The translations under genes and the position numbers were made by a program. Positions 2,284 through 62,455 of a stretch of 64,000 bases of DNA are shown here, piece by piece; positions within the stretch are counted from its first letter, which is position 1, and each line of letters starts with the position of its first letter. The notes under the pieces were generated by a model, which saw nothing but the letters and a program-made list of their open reading frames with translations, did not search any database and was not told the origin of the DNA. The DNA is taken from sequence record PV730302.1. One strand, 5' to 3'. This DNA is from a phage.

Positions 2284-4003
2284 TCAGAATAGTTTTCGTC
2301 GCAATAAACTGATTGAAGAAATGGCTCCTCAGCGTCGTGCTGAGGCGCTAGCCCAAACTCAGAACGACGAATTAGGAAATATATCAGATGTTTTATCCGA
2401 TTCCCAGGCGGCGTCTGAATTGCTCTCTGAAGTGGTTGAGACAAAGTCTAATCAGATTATTAGTTCTGTAGACCGAGTAGATAAAAGCGTCCAAGATGTT
2501 GTTGCCGGGACAGAATTAACGGCTGAAGCTATATCAGAACAAACTCAACAATCTAAAGCTCTTTCGGATGCACTAAACGAAAAGATTAATAAGCTTTCTA
2601 ATATGTTAGAGGCTAAATTTTCTGGTATTTCTATTCCACCGGAAGGGAGCTCATTAAAGGTTATTGAAGACTCTATTCCGGAAGAACCTAAGGCCGAAAC
2701 TCCTAAAGTTCCTGCTGTTGTTGAAGATATTCTTCCACCTGAAGATAATAAACCTGACGCTGAATTTATGCCTGAGCCTCCTAAAAATTCAGATGAAGGT
2801 AAAGAAGGTGATAAGACTTCTCTTTCCGAGAAAATAGAAGCCCTTACTAAAATAACTGAAAAGGGATTTAAAGCTTCTATAGGCGTCGCTGATAGAATTT
2901 CAGGCATGCTTTTTAAGTATACCATTACCGCTGCCGCTGAAGCTGCTAAACTCGCCGCAGGTTTAGTCCTTTTAATATTTGGTATAGATGCCATTCGTGT
3001 GTACTTCCAATATTTCATGGACCAATTTGAGGCAGGATGGAAAGAATTTAACGATAAGTTTAAAGAGTGGGGACCATTACTTGAAGGGCTAATGACATGG
3101 GCCAAGAATGCTGAAGCCATGTTTAGTGAAGGGAACTGGTTAGGTCTGGCTGAAGCCATTATTCGTGGTATGGTTAATCTTACTAAAAATATGGCCCAGC
3201 TTTTAATGCTCGGTATTTCTAAGTTGATTTCTGCCATTTTAAGCAAAATACCTGGTATGGGTGAGTTAGCTGAAAACGTGGAGGCTTCCGCTTTAATGTC
3301 GTATCAGCAAAATACAGGAGCCACTTTGGATGATGAAGACCAAACTAAAGTAGCCAAGTACCACGATAGACGTTCTGCCGAGGCTTTAGAAACAGCCGAG
3401 AAAATGAATAAGAAGTATAAGGATAAACCCGAGCTTATAAACCAAGCAGAGAAATACGGTAATCTTACTAAAGAACAAGCTGACCAATTACGTGCAGGTG
3501 GAATTGACACAAGCTTCCGTGACCTCCCTGAAGAAGAACGATTAGAGTATTTCAAGAAGCGGGATAAAGCCCAAGCCGATATTATTCGTTTGACTCAAAC
3601 TGCTGATAATATAATGAAGCCTGATTCTAAAGATATCGAAAATGCTAAAGCATTTAAAGCTGATATCGAGAAACAATTGGCCGACCCTATTATGGCTAAA
3701 GGCGGAGCACCGAAGGACCTTAATATCCAGCAATTACTTGATAAGATGAATAAATCTTTAGAGAAATTTAATGAAGCTGAAAAGCCTAAACCTGCTTCTG
3801 TAGCGGAATCTCCTGAAAATACCCAGGTTAAAAAGGTGGATGAGCAAATGAGAGCAAAGGAAAATGCTAAATATAGTCAGCAGGCTCCAACTCAAATAAA
3901 TCAGCAAACGAATATCAAGAAAACGAGTAAGACTAGTTATAATTTACCTCCACAGTCCTCTACTCCTGCTCCTGGTATGCGTCAAGCTACTAAAGTTAAT
4001 TAG
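2267..4003 (+). CDS. 29: baseplate hub / tail length determining protein gp29
   Basis: 578 aa (T4 gp29 590 aa); extended, low-complexity, coiled-coil-like sequence typical of tape-measure-like proteins; synteny. Confidence 0.65.
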   Translation: MKNESNQNSFRRNKLIEEMAPQRRAEALAQTQNDELGNISDVLSDSQAASELLSEVVETKSNQIISSVDRVDKSVQDVVAGTELTAEAISEQTQQSKALSDALNEKINKLSNMLEAKFSGISIPPEGSSLKVIEDSIPEEPKAETPKVPAVVEDILPPEDNKPDAEFMPEPPKNSDEGKEGDKTSLSEKIEALTKITEKGFKASIGVADRISGMLFKYTITAAAEAAKLAAGLVLLIFGIDAIRVYFQYFMDQFEAGWKEFNDKFKEWGPLLEGLMTWAKNAEAMFSEGNWLGLAEAIIRGMVNLTKNMAQLLMLGISKLISAILSKIPGMGELAENVEASALMSYQQNTGATLDDEDQTKVAKYHDRRSAEALETAEKMNKKYKDKPELINQAEKYGNLTKEQADQLRAGGIDTSFRDLPEEERLEYFKKRDKAQADIIRLTQTADNIMKPDSKDIENAKAFKADIEKQLADPIMAKGGAPKDLNIQQLLDKMNKSLEKFNEAEKPKPASVAESPENTQVKKVDEQMRAKENAKYSQQAPTQINQQTNIKKTSKTSYNLPPQSSTPAPGMRQATKVN

Positions 4004-60257: not shown

Positions 60258-60434
60258 TCACTTAGTCAGAAGGTCGTAAAAACCGCCATTAACATGTTTA
60301 GGAGCCGAGACTAACCGAACAGCCAGCCGATGGCAATCAGGACAAACATCATTATCTCTTTCAGAGATTTTCTTGATTTTTTCATATTCTTTCGCACAGT
60401 CTTCAGATTGGCATTTGTAATCATAAAGTGGCAT
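60258..60434 (-). CDS. zinc-ribbon protein (CxxC...CxxC), 58 aa
   Basis: Track ORF to 60527; ATG 60432-60434 (MPLYDYKCQSEDC...CPDCH...) with strong SD AAGGAG; FmdB-like zinc-ribbon pattern. Confidence 0.45.
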   Translation of the reverse strand: MPLYDYKCQSEDCAKEYEKIKKISERDNDVCPDCHRLAVRLVSAPKHVNGGFYDLLTK

Positions 60435-60645
60435 TATAAGTCTCCTTCCAGAATTCAGTGCCTTCAGCAGTGATTTCACGGAACACTGCATAGATAGGGG
60501 TTTTATCGCCTTGATTTTCGTATACATAAACCGACGATAAACGAGAAAACGTATCAGAATGTTCCTTTTGAACCACGATTAAATCCGGGTTGAACAGAAC
60601 ATCTTCAAATTCTTCACGAGTCGAGTTCATCGTAACTTTAGCCAT
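60421..60645 (-). CDS. hypothetical protein
   Basis: 74-aa ORF. Confidence 0.35.
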   Translation of the reverse strand: MAKVTMNSTREEFEDVLFNPDLIVVQKEHSDTFSRLSSVYVYENQGDKTPIYAVFREITAEGTEFWKETYNATL

Positions 60646-60719: not shown

Positions 60720-61271
60720 TTATGCAAAATGAATATCAGCATACTCAACTATAAAGCTCTCAGGAACAACCTTAAAGGTTCCAAGGAACACGATGTTATA
60801 GAGCTTAACGCCTTCTTCAACCCACTGGTCAGTGATGTAACCGGACATACTAGTGGTTTCATAAGTCGGACCGTACTTGCACTTGTATTCAAACGGTTTA
60901 GGTGAAACGAAAAAGACACCTTTACCTAATTTCCATTTGAAATCAACACCAACATGAGATTGGTCGATAGTTTCGACGTCTTGAGCTACTACGCCACGGA
61001 TATCATTGCTTTCACATACATACCCATCGTGGGATTCGACTTCTTCAACTACAGGAGCGATGTATCCAGTAAATTCAGTTGATTCCAGGAATTTAGGATG
61101 TACATAAGCCAATTGAGTTTCAGCATGACCATGTTTAGGAATAATACGCACTTTAACTTCTTTAATTCCACCCACTAAATTAGTACGAAGACCCACAACC
61201 TCAACAAAACGACCCGCGGCTTTTGAGCGAGATTCTTTGGATACACGAACAATTTCACCGATAGTAATCAT
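60720..61271 (-). CDS. hypothetical protein, paralog family Y (member 1)
   Basis: 183 aa; C-terminal YITDQWVEEGVKLYNIVFLGTFKVVPESFIV closely parallels the neighbour's GWVTDQWVEDGVELLNVVHAGDFSVVPRSAVV. Confidence 0.45.
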   Translation of the reverse strand: MITIGEIVRVSKESRSKAAGRFVEVVGLRTNLVGGIKEVKVRIIPKHGHAETQLAYVHPKFLESTEFTGYIAPVVEEVESHDGYVCESNDIRGVVAQDVETIDQSHVGVDFKWKLGKGVFFVSPKPFEYKCKYGPTYETTSMSGYITDQWVEEGVKLYNIVFLGTFKVVPESFIVEYADIHFA

Positions 61272-61313
61272 AATTTTCTCTCTTGGTTAATAAGTTTATT
61301 CTCCATGAGAGCC

Positions 61314-61342
61314 ATTATAACATGGCTCTCGATAAAGTAAAC
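61314..61342 (-). promoter_or_regulatory. early promoter (GTTTAC-N17-TATAAT) with -10 in loop of a perfect 9-bp-stem hairpin
   Basis: gagagccat-tataac-atggctctc (61307..61330); -35 gtaaac 17 nt away; upstream of ORF start 61271. Confidence 0.5.
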
Positions 61343-61344
61343 TA

Positions 61345-61893
61345 CTAATTCAATACATTAACCACTGCACTACGAGGTACTACGCTGAAATCACCCGCAT
61401 GGACAACGTTCAGAAGCTCAACACCGTCTTCAACCCACTGGTCTGTTACCCATCCACAGATAGGATTATCAAAAGGACGACGGATAGACACAGCAGCACA
61501 CAGAAGGTCAGTAGGGTCTTGTTCTTCAACTTCTTGGAACAGGATTAACTCTGCTTCATAAACCAGGTTTTTCTCTACTTTGTTATTATCTAACCGGCGA
61601 CCGTGGATGACGTAAGATTTGGCAAACCAGTCGCTTTTGGTAAATTCTTCAATAATAAATTCGCCTTCGCCAAAAACATCAGTCAGAGTTTTATAACCGG
61701 AAACCAAGGCCCTGGTTTTAATTTCAGGTTCAACCAGTTTGTAGGTTTTGCCGATTTCGATAGTCTTAGTAGTCATAGTGGTTTCCTTAATTTCCATTGG
61801 TTTAATAAGAGTGCCGTACATACTTGCAATGTCAAAATCAATCAGTTTAGCTGCCGGATTCGGGGTGTATTTAGGGTTATAATTAAATTTCAT
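61345..61893 (-). CDS. hypothetical protein, paralog family Y (member 2)
   Basis: 182 aa; shares C-terminal motif with ORF 60720..61271. Confidence 0.45.
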   Translation of the reverse strand: MKFNYNPKYTPNPAAKLIDFDIASMYGTLIKPMEIKETTMTTKTIEIGKTYKLVEPEIKTRALVSGYKTLTDVFGEGEFIIEEFTKSDWFAKSYVIHGRRLDNNKVEKNLVYEAELILFQEVEEQDPTDLLCAAVSIRRPFDNPICGWVTDQWVEDGVELLNVVHAGDFSVVPRSAVVNVLN

Positions 61894-62399
61894 ATTGTTC
61901 TCAATTCAATAAAATCTACGAGTTCAGCATGGGATTTGCGGAACATTACTTGGCGGTCACCGATGACAACCTCATCTTCTGGTATTTCGTAAACAGCAAG
62001 ATAGAATCCTTTAGAAGATAATTCGGCACGCTCTTCACGAGTGAACCAGCGCATCATATCATACTCGCTGGCAAAAGCAAAATGGTAGAGGTTAACAAAC
62101 CAACTAGGGATATAGTTATCTACACCTTTATAATCTTCATGTTCGAATTTGGTTTTAATTACCATATTAGAATTTTTAACCAACAATTCGTCTTGACTTG
62201 GTAGTGGAATATTTTTATTATTGGTATGATGGTGTCTAAAATTAGGTCTGTCGAAACCGACTTCCAATAACCAACCTTCACTCCATTCGTCAAATGAGCC
62301 TCTATACGGGGTTAATTGGCGACATTGTTGACGAGTGATTGCGATAACATCGCTGTTGTCTAAGATACTGAACGATGACTCCACTCGATAAATTTTCAT
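61890..62399 (-). CDS. hypothetical protein (possibly motB position)
   Basis: 169 aa; SD GAGGAG lies in an inverted-repeat arm; T4 MotB is of similar size and sits upstream of dexA, but identity is unverified. Confidence 0.35.
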   Translation of the reverse strand: MKIYRVESSFSILDNSDVIAITRQQCRQLTPYRGSFDEWSEGWLLEVGFDRPNFRHHHTNNKNIPLPSQDELLVKNSNMVIKTKFEHEDYKGVDNYIPSWFVNLYHFAFASEYDMMRWFTREERAELSSKGFYLAVYEIPEDEVVIGDRQVMFRKSHAELVDFIELRTI

Positions 62400-62426
62400 T
62401 TTGTTCTCCTCATGTTGATAGGGTAG

Positions 62427-62455
62427 ATAATATCATGCCATGAGGAGAAGTAAAC
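62427..62455 (-). promoter_or_regulatory. early promoter-like element (GTTTAC-N17-TATTAT) inside SD-sequestering inverted repeat
   Basis: 9-bp arms ctcctcatg (62406..62414, SD/start region) and catgaggag (62439..62447, promoter spacer). Confidence 0.45.

What the first reader, a model, noticed from the sequence alone, without database searches (positions are those of the whole stretch)
60720..61893. Tandem paralogs sharing a conserved C-terminal TDQWVE[ED]GV.L.N.V..G.F.VVP motif
Two adjacent 182/183-aa ORFs have divergent N-terminal halves but a closely similar roughly 35-aa C-terminal block, each with its own promoter-like element. The N-termini are Lys/Glu/Val-rich and beta-strand-like. The function is unknown; the pattern suggests a duplicated domain with diversifying N-terminal specificity.
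Basis: seen in the sequence. Interest (0 to 1): 0.45.

Follow-up and report, generated by a model that had tools for sequence, protein, structure and literature searches.

The report
T4-like phage motB and motB.1 genes
The two adjacent genes are the known phage T4 early genes motB, which encodes a DNA-binding protein that acts on host H-NS, and motB.1; their shared C-terminal domain was described in print in 2021, so the finding is real but ordinary.

Summary
Two minus-strand ORFs, 60720-61271 (183 aa) and 61345-61893 (182 aa), share a C-terminal block: 19 of 34 residues identical, BLASTP E 3e-11, and a local alignment score 15.9 sd above 2000 shuffles. Their N-terminal parts show no similarity.

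The window comes from a JS98/Bp7-like (Dhakavirus) T4-type phage. ORF1 is MotB (Pfam PF17613, E 4e-51). ORF2 is MotB.1 (phrog_2333, E 8e-84). The gene order is the T4 order: dexA, motB.2, motB.1, motB, cef.

Hinton and co-workers (PMC7827196, 2021) already reported that MotB and MotB.1 share a conserved C-terminal domain (CTD), have different N-terminal domains (NTDs), and probably arose by duplication.

- The homology covers a whole small beta-barrel, MotB 115-177 and MotB.1 131-180 (hhalign 98%).
- The models look SH3/Tudor/KOW-like rather than OB-fold.
- The N-terminal parts are different modules: KOW-like in MotB, LSm-like in MotB.1.
- The family is very small and appears confined to T4-like phages.
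- Only motB has its own promoter. motB.1 is coupled to motB.2.
- The reference T4 motB.1 (119 aa) is cut short by one extra G. Re-sequenced T4 genomes encode 143 aa.

Novelty: already known. Interest: low.

The parts
60720..61271 (-). motB, 183 aa: orthologue of the T4 MotB DNA-binding early protein
   Evidence: Pfam PF17613 E 3.9e-51 (173.5 bits, cut-off 25) and phrog_1671 E 3.9e-69. Lies between cef and motB.1 as in T4 and JS98. 96% identical to proteins annotated as MotB in LHE83 and E33.
61083..61271 (-). MotB N-terminal KOW/SH3-like barrel (residues 1-63), basic (net +5, pI 10.1)
60960..61082 (-). MotB acidic linker (residues 64-104, net -9), predicted disordered. Longer here than in T4 MotB, which has a 27-column gap at this point in the alignment.
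   Evidence: pLDDT below 50 for residues 66-104. Gap in T4 MotB in alignment A1. Charge.
60723..60959 (-). MotB C-terminal small beta-barrel (residues 105-183) with a Lys-rich beta1-beta2 hairpin (111-141, net +4)
   Evidence: AF2 pLDDT about 85-96. Strands 118-130, 136-152, 155-162 and 165-170, then a 3-residue helix, then 174-177. Charge.
60747..60848 (-). Shared block in MotB (residues 142-175: MSGYITDQWVEEGVKLYNIVFLGTFKVVPESFIV)
   Evidence: Most conserved well-sampled segment of the MotB family: 78% mean pairwise identity against 52-63% for the KOW domain, the whole CTD and the beta1-beta2 hairpin. The linker figure of 80% was computed on the 79-sequence alignment, but many of those sequences (e.g. 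the 163-aa forms) lack part of this linker.
61307..61341 (-). motB early-type promoter (TTTACT 61341-61336, TG-extended TATAAT 61319-61314) overlapped by a conserved hairpin (GAGAGCCAT/ATGGCTCTC, 61307-61330)
   Evidence: Best promoter match in the region, 10 of 12 with TG. Sequence. The hairpin is kept in T4 and JS98, with 4 of 9 pairs changed on both sides (three sequences only).
61345..61893 (-). motB.1, 182 aa: long form of T4 MotB.1
   Evidence: phrog_2333 E 8.1e-84 over the full length. Pfam motB 36 bits on residues 141-177 only. Annotated motB.1 in JS98, IME08 and Bp7. 68% identical to intact T4 MotB.1 over residues 104-182.
61360..61461 (-). Shared block in MotB.1 (residues 145-178: ICGWVTDQWVEDGVELLNVVHAGDFSVVPRSAVV), acidic (net -4)
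   Evidence: 97% mean pairwise identity among MotB.1 orthologues, against 76-80% for the N-terminal parts. Charge.
61348..61518 (-). MotB.1 C-terminal small beta-barrel (residues 126-182), the minimal version without the MotB hairpin insertion
   Evidence: AF2 strands 134-137, 145-155, 158-165 and 168-173, then a 3-residue helix, then 177-179, with pLDDT 76-85. hhalign.
61519..61770 (-). MotB.1 alpha+beta N-terminal domain (residues 42-125), counterpart of the LSm-like NTD described for T4 MotB.1
   Evidence: AF2 elements E50-53, H61-74, E78-86, E93-100, E105-112, H113-118 and E119-121, with pLDDT about 80. Foldseek aligns the model with T4 MotB.1 (P39415) over 118 columns, E 1.4e-7. The LSm-like assignment comes from PMC12152347.
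61771..61893 (-). MotB.1 N-terminal extension (residues 1-41), predicted disordered. Carries a short conserved motif DFDIASMY (residues 19-26, 61816-61839).
   Evidence: pLDDT below 50. The extension is conserved in orthologues. D.D[VILT]..[MTA]Y recurs at different positions in other architectures of the family: between KOW and CTD, and between LSm-like domain and CTD.
61890..62399 (-). motB.2 (169 aa). Its stop overlaps the motB.1 start (ATGA). Unrelated in sequence to MotB and MotB.1.
   Evidence: phrog_1106 E 4.7e-52. JS98 and T4 annotation. No similarity above shuffles. Sequence.
62404..62454 (-). Promoter-like site upstream of motB.2 (TTTACT-16-TATTAT with TG, 62454-62427), set inside an 11-bp hairpin (62404-62449) whose 3' arm contains the motB.2 Shine-Dalgarno sequence GAGGAG
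   Evidence: 9 of 12. Sequence. RNA fold -19.5 kcal/mol, z = -5.3, 0 of 200 shuffles fold as well.

Best explanation
The locus is the motB.2-motB.1-motB early-gene cluster of a Dhakavirus-type T4-like phage.

MotB and MotB.1 are old paralogues that share only a C-terminal small beta-barrel of about 50-65 residues.

MotB combines this barrel with a basic KOW-like N-terminal barrel, an acidic disordered linker and a Lys-rich beta1-beta2 hairpin inserted in the barrel. By orthology with T4 MotB, it is an early, sequence-non-specific DNA-binding, nucleoid-associated-type protein. That protein changes how host H-NS and StpA sit on DNA and raises burst size.

MotB.1 carries the minimal barrel behind an LSm-like alpha+beta domain and a disordered N-terminal extension with a DxDxxSMY peptide.

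My inference is that the shared barrel is not itself the DNA-contacting surface. It is acidic and is the most conserved well-sampled part of both proteins. I think it acts as a common scaffold or partner-binding module (the same host or phage partner, or homo- or hetero-association). The exchangeable N-terminal modules then supply different nucleic-acid contacts: KOW plus the basic hairpin for DNA in MotB, and the LSm-like domain, possibly for RNA, in MotB.1.

What is shown here: identity of the genes, extent of the homology, domain layout and expression signals. What comes from the literature: MotB biochemistry. What is inferred: the role of the shared barrel and any activity of MotB.1.
For: Homology is limited to the C-terminal barrel: BLASTP E 3e-11, z = 15.9 against shuffles, hhalign 98.3% for MotB 115-177 against MotB.1 131-180 with a 12-residue insertion in MotB.

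The duplication is old, not recent gene conversion. The block is only 58% identical in DNA, and third codon positions match at 10 of 34.

The N-terminal modules differ: a KOW HMM matches only ORF1 and an LSm-like HMM matches only ORF2. Foldseek aligns the ORF2 model with T4 MotB.1.

The same CTD is found behind at least five N-terminal arrangements.

The shared block is the most conserved well-sampled segment of both families. It is acidic (net -2 in MotB, -4 in MotB.1), whereas MotB's positive charge lies in the KOW domain (+5) and the hairpin insertion (+4). MotB.1 as a whole has pI 4.9.

MotB biochemistry is reported in PMC6070864 and PMC7827196. The shared CTD and a probable duplication are stated in PMC7827196, section 3.2.
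Against: - No experiment assigns DNA binding to either MotB domain. The published view is that either the KOW domain or the CTD could bind DNA, and it calls the CTD an OB-fold (PMC7827196).
- The fold-search tools did not report which residues of my two-domain models were aligned, so the SH3/Tudor-like call for the CTD rests on strand topology and on the hits the two models share.
- The MotB.1 model is of moderate confidence (mean pLDDT 69) and comes from a shallow alignment in which most sequences are at least 68% identical to the query.
- T4 motB.1 deletion and amber mutants showed no phenotype, and the 119-aa MotB.1 had no effect in an RNA reporter assay (PMC12152347). That construct lacked the conserved C-terminus.
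- Net charge is a crude guide to nucleic-acid binding.
Confidence: 0.55

Rival explanations
1. Both proteins are DNA-binding, nucleoid-associated-type proteins, and the shared C-terminal domain is the DNA-binding OB-fold, as proposed in the literature. MotB.1 would then be a second DNA binder with a different N-terminal accessory domain.
For: HHpred-based assignment of the MotB CTD to the cold-shock OB-fold, with eIF5A as the closest hit (PMC7827196). The CTD is the only element common to all family members. Its conservation is strongest there.
Confidence: 0.25
2. The C-terminal similarity is kept up by ongoing recombination or gene conversion between the adjacent genes, or by modular exchange among phages, rather than by an old duplication under selection.
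For: A 17-nt identical run (GACCAGTGGGTTGAAGA) lies inside the block. tblastn shows phages that match only residues 126-182 of MotB.1 at 84-87% identity while their N-terminal parts do not match, which indicates module shuffling between phages. Many architectures exist.
Against: The block is only 58% identical in DNA, and third codon positions match at 10 of 34, which is about random. Only 9 of the 19 identical residues use the same codon. MotB-type and MotB.1-type CTDs form distinct, internally conserved groups.
Confidence: 0.1
3. The similarity is a chance or low-complexity motif match, comparable to the short SGYATEQWVxDK repeat of tail-fibre-like proteins that also hits the profile.
For: The exhaustive profile search returned 500-860-aa repeat proteins that match profile positions of about 20-43, at E 1e-6 to 1e-3.
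Against: z = 15.9 against shuffles. hhalign 98.3% over 49 columns spanning a whole domain. The predicted secondary structure is the same in both. Pfam scores ORF2 above the motB gathering threshold. The tail-fibre matches cover about 20 residues only.
Confidence: 0.01

Closest known systems
Bacteriophage T4 MotB (NP_049626; Pfam PF17613; PHROG 1671)
   Same: ORF1 is its orthologue. It has the same genome position between cef and motB.1, the same KOW-like NTD plus CTD layout, and a full-length Pfam match at E 4e-51. A close relative of T4 MotB (P0196, 162 aa) is 48% identical to it.
   Different: ORF1 is 183 aa against 162 aa. The extra length is in the acidic disordered linker, where T4 MotB has a 27-column gap in the alignment. 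Some other Dhakavirus relatives have 163-aa forms. No biochemistry exists for this orthologue.
[quoted passage not shown]
   Same: ORF2 occupies the same slot between motB.2 and motB. It is 68% identical to intact T4 MotB.1 over the last 80 residues. Foldseek aligns the models over 118 columns. It has the same order of an alpha+beta LSm-like domain followed by the CTD.
   Different: ORF2 is 182 aa. It has a 41-aa N-terminal extension with a DFDIASMY motif that T4 lacks. Its LSm-like domain is too divergent for BLAST or an HMM to link it to T4's. The reference T4 protein (119 aa) lacks the last 27 conserved residues because of one extra G.
SH3-like small beta-barrels: Tudor (53BP1, PHF19), KOW (NusG, Spt5, RfaH), chromo (MRG15), PsaE, NdhS
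   Different: Sequence identity is only 10-20%, and no sequence-profile link to any solved structure was found. There is no evidence for a methyl-lysine cage or for NusG-type partners. This is a fold-level resemblance only.
OB-fold cold-shock/eIF5A C-terminal domain (the published HHpred prediction for the MotB CTD)
   Same: A small five-stranded beta-barrel with roles in nucleic-acid binding, proposed for T4 MotB residues 69-149 (PMC7827196).

Membership tests
MotB family (Pfam PF17613 / PHROG 1671) | Full-length match to the family HMM above the curated threshold | tested here: met
   ORF1: 173.5 bits against a cut-off of 25, E 3.9e-51, profile positions 65-161 in the best stretch and 2 stretches in all. 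phrog_1671 matches residues 1-183, E 3.9e-69. ORF2 passes the Pfam threshold (36 bits), but only on profile positions 117-153, so it carries the domain without being a MotB orthologue.
MotB family (Pfam PF17613 / PHROG 1671) | N-terminal KOW-like barrel | tested here: met
MotB family (Pfam PF17613 / PHROG 1671) | Position between cef and motB.1 in the dexA-39 early region | tested here: met
   The gene order dda, dexA, motB.2, motB.1, motB, cef, 39.2, 39.1, 39 in the window matches T4 and JS98.
MotB family (Pfam PF17613 / PHROG 1671) | Non-specific DNA binding, co-purification with H-NS/StpA, toxicity in E. coli | not testable with these tools
   Known only for T4 MotB (PMC6070864, PMC7827196). 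Inferred here by orthology.
MotB.1 (PHROG 2333) | Full-length match to the family profile and position between motB.2 and motB | tested here: met
   ORF2: phrog_2333 matches residues 1-182, E 8.1e-84. The gene is annotated motB.1 in JS98, IME08 and Bp7.
MotB.1 (PHROG 2333) | MotB.1-type minimal CTD (PF..CGWVTDQW[IV]EDGVELLNVVH.G.[FY]SVVPRS) | tested here: met
   C146, G147, W148, V149, T150, D151, Q152, W153, E155, D156 and further positions are invariant in 55 sequences.
Tevenvirinae LSm-like fold family (GoF / MotB.1 / Frd.2; PMC12152347) | N-terminal bent five-stranded antiparallel sheet resembling Hfq/LSm | tested here: inconclusive
OB-fold, cold-shock DNA-binding type (published prediction for the CTD) | Five-stranded Greek-key barrel with a helix between beta3 and beta4; structural neighbours are OB proteins | tested here: not met

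The most novel reading that the evidence does not exclude
The acidic, near-invariant C-terminal barrel would be a dedicated targeting or association module. It would bring differently armed early proteins to one common partner: MotB with KOW plus a basic hairpin for DNA, and MotB.1 with an LSm-like domain, possibly for RNA. Candidate partners are the basic DNA-binding domain of H-NS/StpA, or each other as a MotB-MotB.1 hetero-oligomer. The recurring DxDxxSMY peptide would be a second docking motif. If so, published negative results for T4 MotB.1 would need repeating, because they used a 119-aa product that lacks this module.
Probability: 0.15. Interest if true: 0.5.

Novelty: already known. 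Interest (0 to 1): 0.15.

Why it matters
As a discovery it matters little. The paralogy, the differing N-terminal domains and the duplication hypothesis are already published, and Pfam already places both proteins under the motB model.

Three by-products have some practical value for people who work on T4 early genes:
1. The annotated reference T4 MotB.1 (119 aa, 13.8 kDa) is truncated by a one-base difference that is absent from the 13 other T4-type records examined here. Experiments done with that synthetic ORF tested a protein without the family's most conserved element.
2. The shared domain models as an SH3/Tudor-like barrel and is acidic. This points DNA binding in MotB towards the KOW domain and the Lys-rich hairpin rather than the shared block.
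3. The family is tiny, with about 27 clusters among 1.84 billion representatives, and it is modular. That makes it a tractable case of domain swapping on a fixed C-terminal module.

Tried and rejected
- Sequence searches against solved structures found no credible relative. ORF1 gave nothing, ORF2 gave only weak, implausible matches (a kinase, TIP60), and the CTD profile gave nothing.
- Pfam scans of the separated domains at E up to 10 returned only the motB model plus noise: DUF1221, DUF7632, Rrp44_CSD1 and PAX, all below threshold.
- The third word-indexed homologue search, using the 63-aa CTD alone, returned only 5 proteins and added little.
- MotB.2 was tested as a possible third paralogue and rejected. 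Its scores were at or below the shuffle means.
- I looked for a separate promoter for motB.1 inside the 3' end of motB.2. Only weak 9-of-12 matches lie in coding sequence, and the total number of promoter-like hits in the region (12) is no more than shuffles give (10.2 +/- 3.5).
- I considered the long repeat proteins hit by the CTD profile as distant relatives and rejected them. They are tail-fibre-type repeats that match only about 20 profile positions.

Full report
**1. Observation**

The region holds two minus-strand ORFs, 60720-61271 (183 aa) and 61345-61893 (182 aa), separated by 73 nt.
- BLASTP aligns ORF1 residues 142-175 with ORF2 residues 145-178: 19/34 identical, no gaps, E 3e-11.
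- In my own shuffle test the local alignment score is 109, against 30.5 +/- 4.9 for 2000 shuffles. That is z = 15.9, with none reaching it and a Gumbel p of about 7e-10.
- The N-terminal 135-138 residues score exactly at the shuffle mean.
The similarity is real and confined to the C-terminus.
- A six-frame HMM scan finds no third copy in the window.

**2. Identity**

Megablast places the window among JS98/Bp7/IME08-like phages (Dhakavirus, Straboviridae) at about 89-93% identity. The gene order is dda, dexA, motB.2, motB.1, motB, cef, 39.2, 39.1, 39, as annotated in T4 and JS98.
- ORF1 is MotB: Pfam PF17613 at 173.5 bits, E 3.9e-51, and phrog_1671 at E 3.9e-69.
- ORF2 is MotB.1: phrog_2333 over the full length at E 8.1e-84. 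The Pfam motB model matches only its residues 141-177, at 36 bits.
- The upstream 169-aa ORF is MotB.2. It is unrelated to either protein.

**3. Prior knowledge**

- PMC6070864 shows that T4 MotB is an early protein that is toxic in E. coli. It binds unmodified and glucosyl-hydroxymethylcytosine DNA without sequence specificity, co-purifies with H-NS and StpA, and doubles burst size.
[quoted passage not shown] It also says that CTD-containing proteins fall into four categories with different NTDs, and that 40 other phages carry both genes.
- The same paper predicts KOW for the MotB NTD and an OB-fold for the CTD by HHpred.
- PMC12152347 assigns the T4 MotB.1 NTD (residues 1-82) to an LSm-like fold family with GoF and Frd.2. 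It finds no phenotype for motB.1 mutants.

**4. Extent and age of the homology**

- A profile-profile comparison of 79 MotB and 55 MotB.1 sequences gives 98.3% probability and E 1.5e-14. It aligns MotB 115-177 with MotB.1 131-180, with a 12-residue insertion in MotB. The homologous unit is therefore a whole small domain, not only the 34-residue block.
- At the DNA level the block is 58% identical. Third codon positions agree at 10 of 34, and only 9 of the 19 conserved residues use the same codon. The duplication is old, and the block is kept by selection on the protein rather than by recent gene conversion.

**5. Structure**

*MotB.* AF2 with a 79-sequence alignment gave mean pLDDT 73.
- A beta-barrel in residues 7-57.
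- A disordered acidic linker in residues 66-104.
- A confident CTD (pLDDT 85-96) with strands 118-130, 136-152, 155-162 and 165-170, a 3-residue helix, then strand 174-177.

*MotB.1.* AF2 with 55 sequences gave mean pLDDT 69.
- A disordered region in residues 1-41.
- An alpha+beta domain in residues 42-121.
- A CTD with strands 134-137, 145-155, 158-165 and 168-173, a 3-residue helix, then strand 177-179.

The two CTDs have the same strand order. MotB has a much longer beta1-beta2 hairpin.

*Fold searches.*
- Together with the short helix before the last strand, this favours an SH3/Tudor-like barrel over the published OB-fold.
- Caveat: the tool does not report which residues were aligned, and the N-terminal domains are small barrels too.
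- Foldseek against viral models aligns the MotB.1 model with T4 MotB.1 (P39415) over 118 columns, E 1.4e-7. The window's residues from about 41 onward therefore correspond to the whole T4 protein, LSm-like NTD included, although BLAST sees only the last 80 residues.

**6. Family census**

A profile of the CTD was searched without a word index against 1.84 billion representative proteins. It found 37 hits at E up to 1e-3.
- About 27 are small proteins (100-250 aa) that carry the CTD and resemble T4-like-phage MotB/MotB.1 proteins. The representative library holds no names or genomic context, so their phage origin is inferred from the sequences.
- The rest are 500-860-aa tail-fibre-type repeat proteins. 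Their SGYATEQWVxDK repeat matches about 20 profile positions, and I regard them as unrelated.

Domain HMMs built here show the CTD behind several arrangements:
- KOW then CTD (MotB).
- KOW then a DxDxxSMY peptide then CTD.
- Extension then LSm-like domain then CTD (the window's MotB.1).
- T4-type LSm-like domain then CTD.
- T4-type LSm-like domain then peptide then CTD.
- Two LSm-like domains then CTD.
- A further 80-aa N-terminal domain in front of the MotB.1 layout (245-250-aa forms).

The pattern is a fixed C-terminal module with swapped N-terminal modules. It is not gradual diversification of one N-terminal region.

**7. What the shared block probably does**

- Within each family the block is the most conserved well-sampled segment. 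In MotB.1 it shows 97% mean pairwise identity, against 76-80% for the extension and the LSm-like domain. In MotB it shows 78%, against 52-63% for the KOW domain, the whole CTD and the beta1-beta2 hairpin. The MotB linker figure of 80% was computed on the 79-sequence alignment, but many of those sequences lack part of this linker.
- The block is acidic: net -2 in MotB and -4 in MotB.1. The MotB.1 CTD has pI 4.2 and the whole protein pI 4.9.
- MotB's positive charge sits in the KOW domain (+5, pI 10.1) and in the MotB-specific hairpin, residues 111-141 (+4, pI 9.5).
- I infer, with moderate confidence, that the block is the structural core plus a conserved acidic surface used for a common partner or for self- or hetero-association. 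On this reading, DNA contact in MotB comes from the KOW domain and the basic hairpin.
- The published alternative, that the CTD is the DNA-binding OB-fold, is not excluded and is kept as the main rival.

**8. Expression signals**

- A T4-early-type promoter lies in the motB.1-motB spacer: TTTACT, 16 nt, TG-extended TATAAT, 10 of 12, at 61341-61314.
- It is overlapped by a 9-bp hairpin (61307-61330). T4 and JS98 preserve this hairpin, with four pairs changed on both sides (three sequences only).
- motB.1 has no spacer. Its ATG overlaps the motB.2 stop as ATGA.
- The nearest promoter-like site (62454-62427) is upstream of motB.2. It lies inside an 11-bp hairpin whose 3' arm contains the motB.2 Shine-Dalgarno sequence (z = -5.3).
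- This resembles the known T4 arrangement, cited from my own knowledge for genes such as e, soc and 49. In it, read-through transcripts hide the ribosome-binding site, and transcripts that start inside the hairpin expose it.
- 'Each with its own promoter' therefore holds for motB only.

**9. By-product: the T4 reference motB.1**

- In NC_000866.4/AF158101.6 the ORF ends ...GGWVTDQWIGRWR*, inside the conserved motif. The +1 frame continues EDGVELLNVVHAGEYSVVPRSAVVAILN*.
- The reference reads TGGATTGGAAGATGGC, where the T4 assembly OZ035787.1 reads TGGATTGAAGATGGC. The latter gives an intact 143-aa protein.
- In a megablast of the 80-nt stretch, only the two copies of the reference are 80/80. 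Thirteen other records (eleven T4 or T4T records plus RB55 and RB59) align over 79 nt.
- T4T (HM137666) and T4 MT984581 annotate a 432-nt motB.1.
- The 13.8-kDa, 119-aa MotB.1 used in PMC12152347 was made by gene synthesis, and the paper's T4 coordinates refer to NC_000866.4. It therefore lacked the family's most conserved 27 residues.

**10. Verdict**

The feature is a known gene pair with a published description of exactly this relationship, so novelty is 'already known' and interest is low. The modest additions are the SH3-like reading of the domain, the charge argument, the architecture census, and the correction to the T4 reference.

Noticed in passing
L001 (NC_000866.4) 3700-3800, minus strand; L003 (OZ035787.1) about 930-1000; L004, L005: The reference T4 motB.1 (119 aa) is truncated by one extra G inside the TDQW[IV]E codons. 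Thirteen other records (eleven T4/T4T plus RB55 and RB59) lack that G and encode an intact 143-aa MotB.1 with the full conserved C-terminus. The 2025 functional study of MotB.1 used the 119-aa form.
   Followed up: yes
window 60421-60527 (junction of cef and 39.2): goF is absent from this phage. cef (60421-60645) runs directly into the 39.2-like zinc-ribbon ORF (60258-60527, whose real start is probably Met32 at 60434). JS98, IME08 and most relatives have a 430-bp goF gene here. Bp7, 04086, C6 and AnYang match the window in one piece, so they share the deletion. GoF is reported as conserved throughout Tevenvirinae (PMC12152347).
   Followed up: partly
window 61307-61330, minus strand: A 9-bp hairpin (GAGAGCCAT/ATGGCTCTC) encloses the -10 box of the motB promoter. 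T4 has a different sequence (GGGACCA/TGGTCCC) at the same place, with compensatory changes in 4 of 9 pairs. Its function is unknown. It could be an RNA 3'-end or processing element in read-through transcripts, or a promoter-DNA feature.
   Followed up: partly
window 62404-62449, minus strand: An 11-bp hairpin (UUCUCCUCAUG/CAUGAGGAGAA) pairs the motB.2 Shine-Dalgarno sequence with sequence upstream of the promoter's -10 box, which lies in the loop. The fold is -19.5 kcal/mol, z = -5.3. It looks like T4-style discrimination between read-through transcripts and promoter-proximal transcripts.
   Followed up: partly
window 61816-61839 (MotB.1 residues 19-26, DFDIASMY); P0254, P0256, P0257, P0258, P0260, P0263, P0264: A short peptide motif, D.D[VILT]..[MTA]Y followed by T/P-rich residues, recurs in predicted disordered segments of many CTD-containing proteins, but at different places: before the LSm-like domain, or between KOW or LSm-like domain and the CTD. 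It may be a docking motif. I did not find it mentioned in the parts of the three papers I read.
   Followed up: partly
P0013, P0035, P0071, P0073, P0077, P0086-P0088, P0259 (245-250 aa): Some MotB.1 orthologues carry a further conserved N-terminal domain of about 80 aa (MNTFDPNAKYIVTPFAELK...IRLAP) in front of the DFD motif. P0248 has two LSm-like domains in tandem.
   Followed up: no
P0265-P0268, P0270, P0271, P0273-P0275: Long tail-fibre-like repeat proteins (532-862 aa) with the repeat SLSGYATEQWVxDKxYIT weakly match the centre of the CTD profile (GYITDQWVEDG). This is probably a coincidental short-motif resemblance.
   Followed up: partly
window 60960-61082 (MotB residues 64-104): This MotB has a longer acidic, predicted-disordered linker (APVVEEVESHDGYVCESNDIRGVVAQ...) than T4 MotB and than the 163-aa Dhakavirus MotB variants. 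A similar EEVESxDGYVCES segment occurs in more distant MotB proteins (P0187, P0191, P0193).
   Followed up: no
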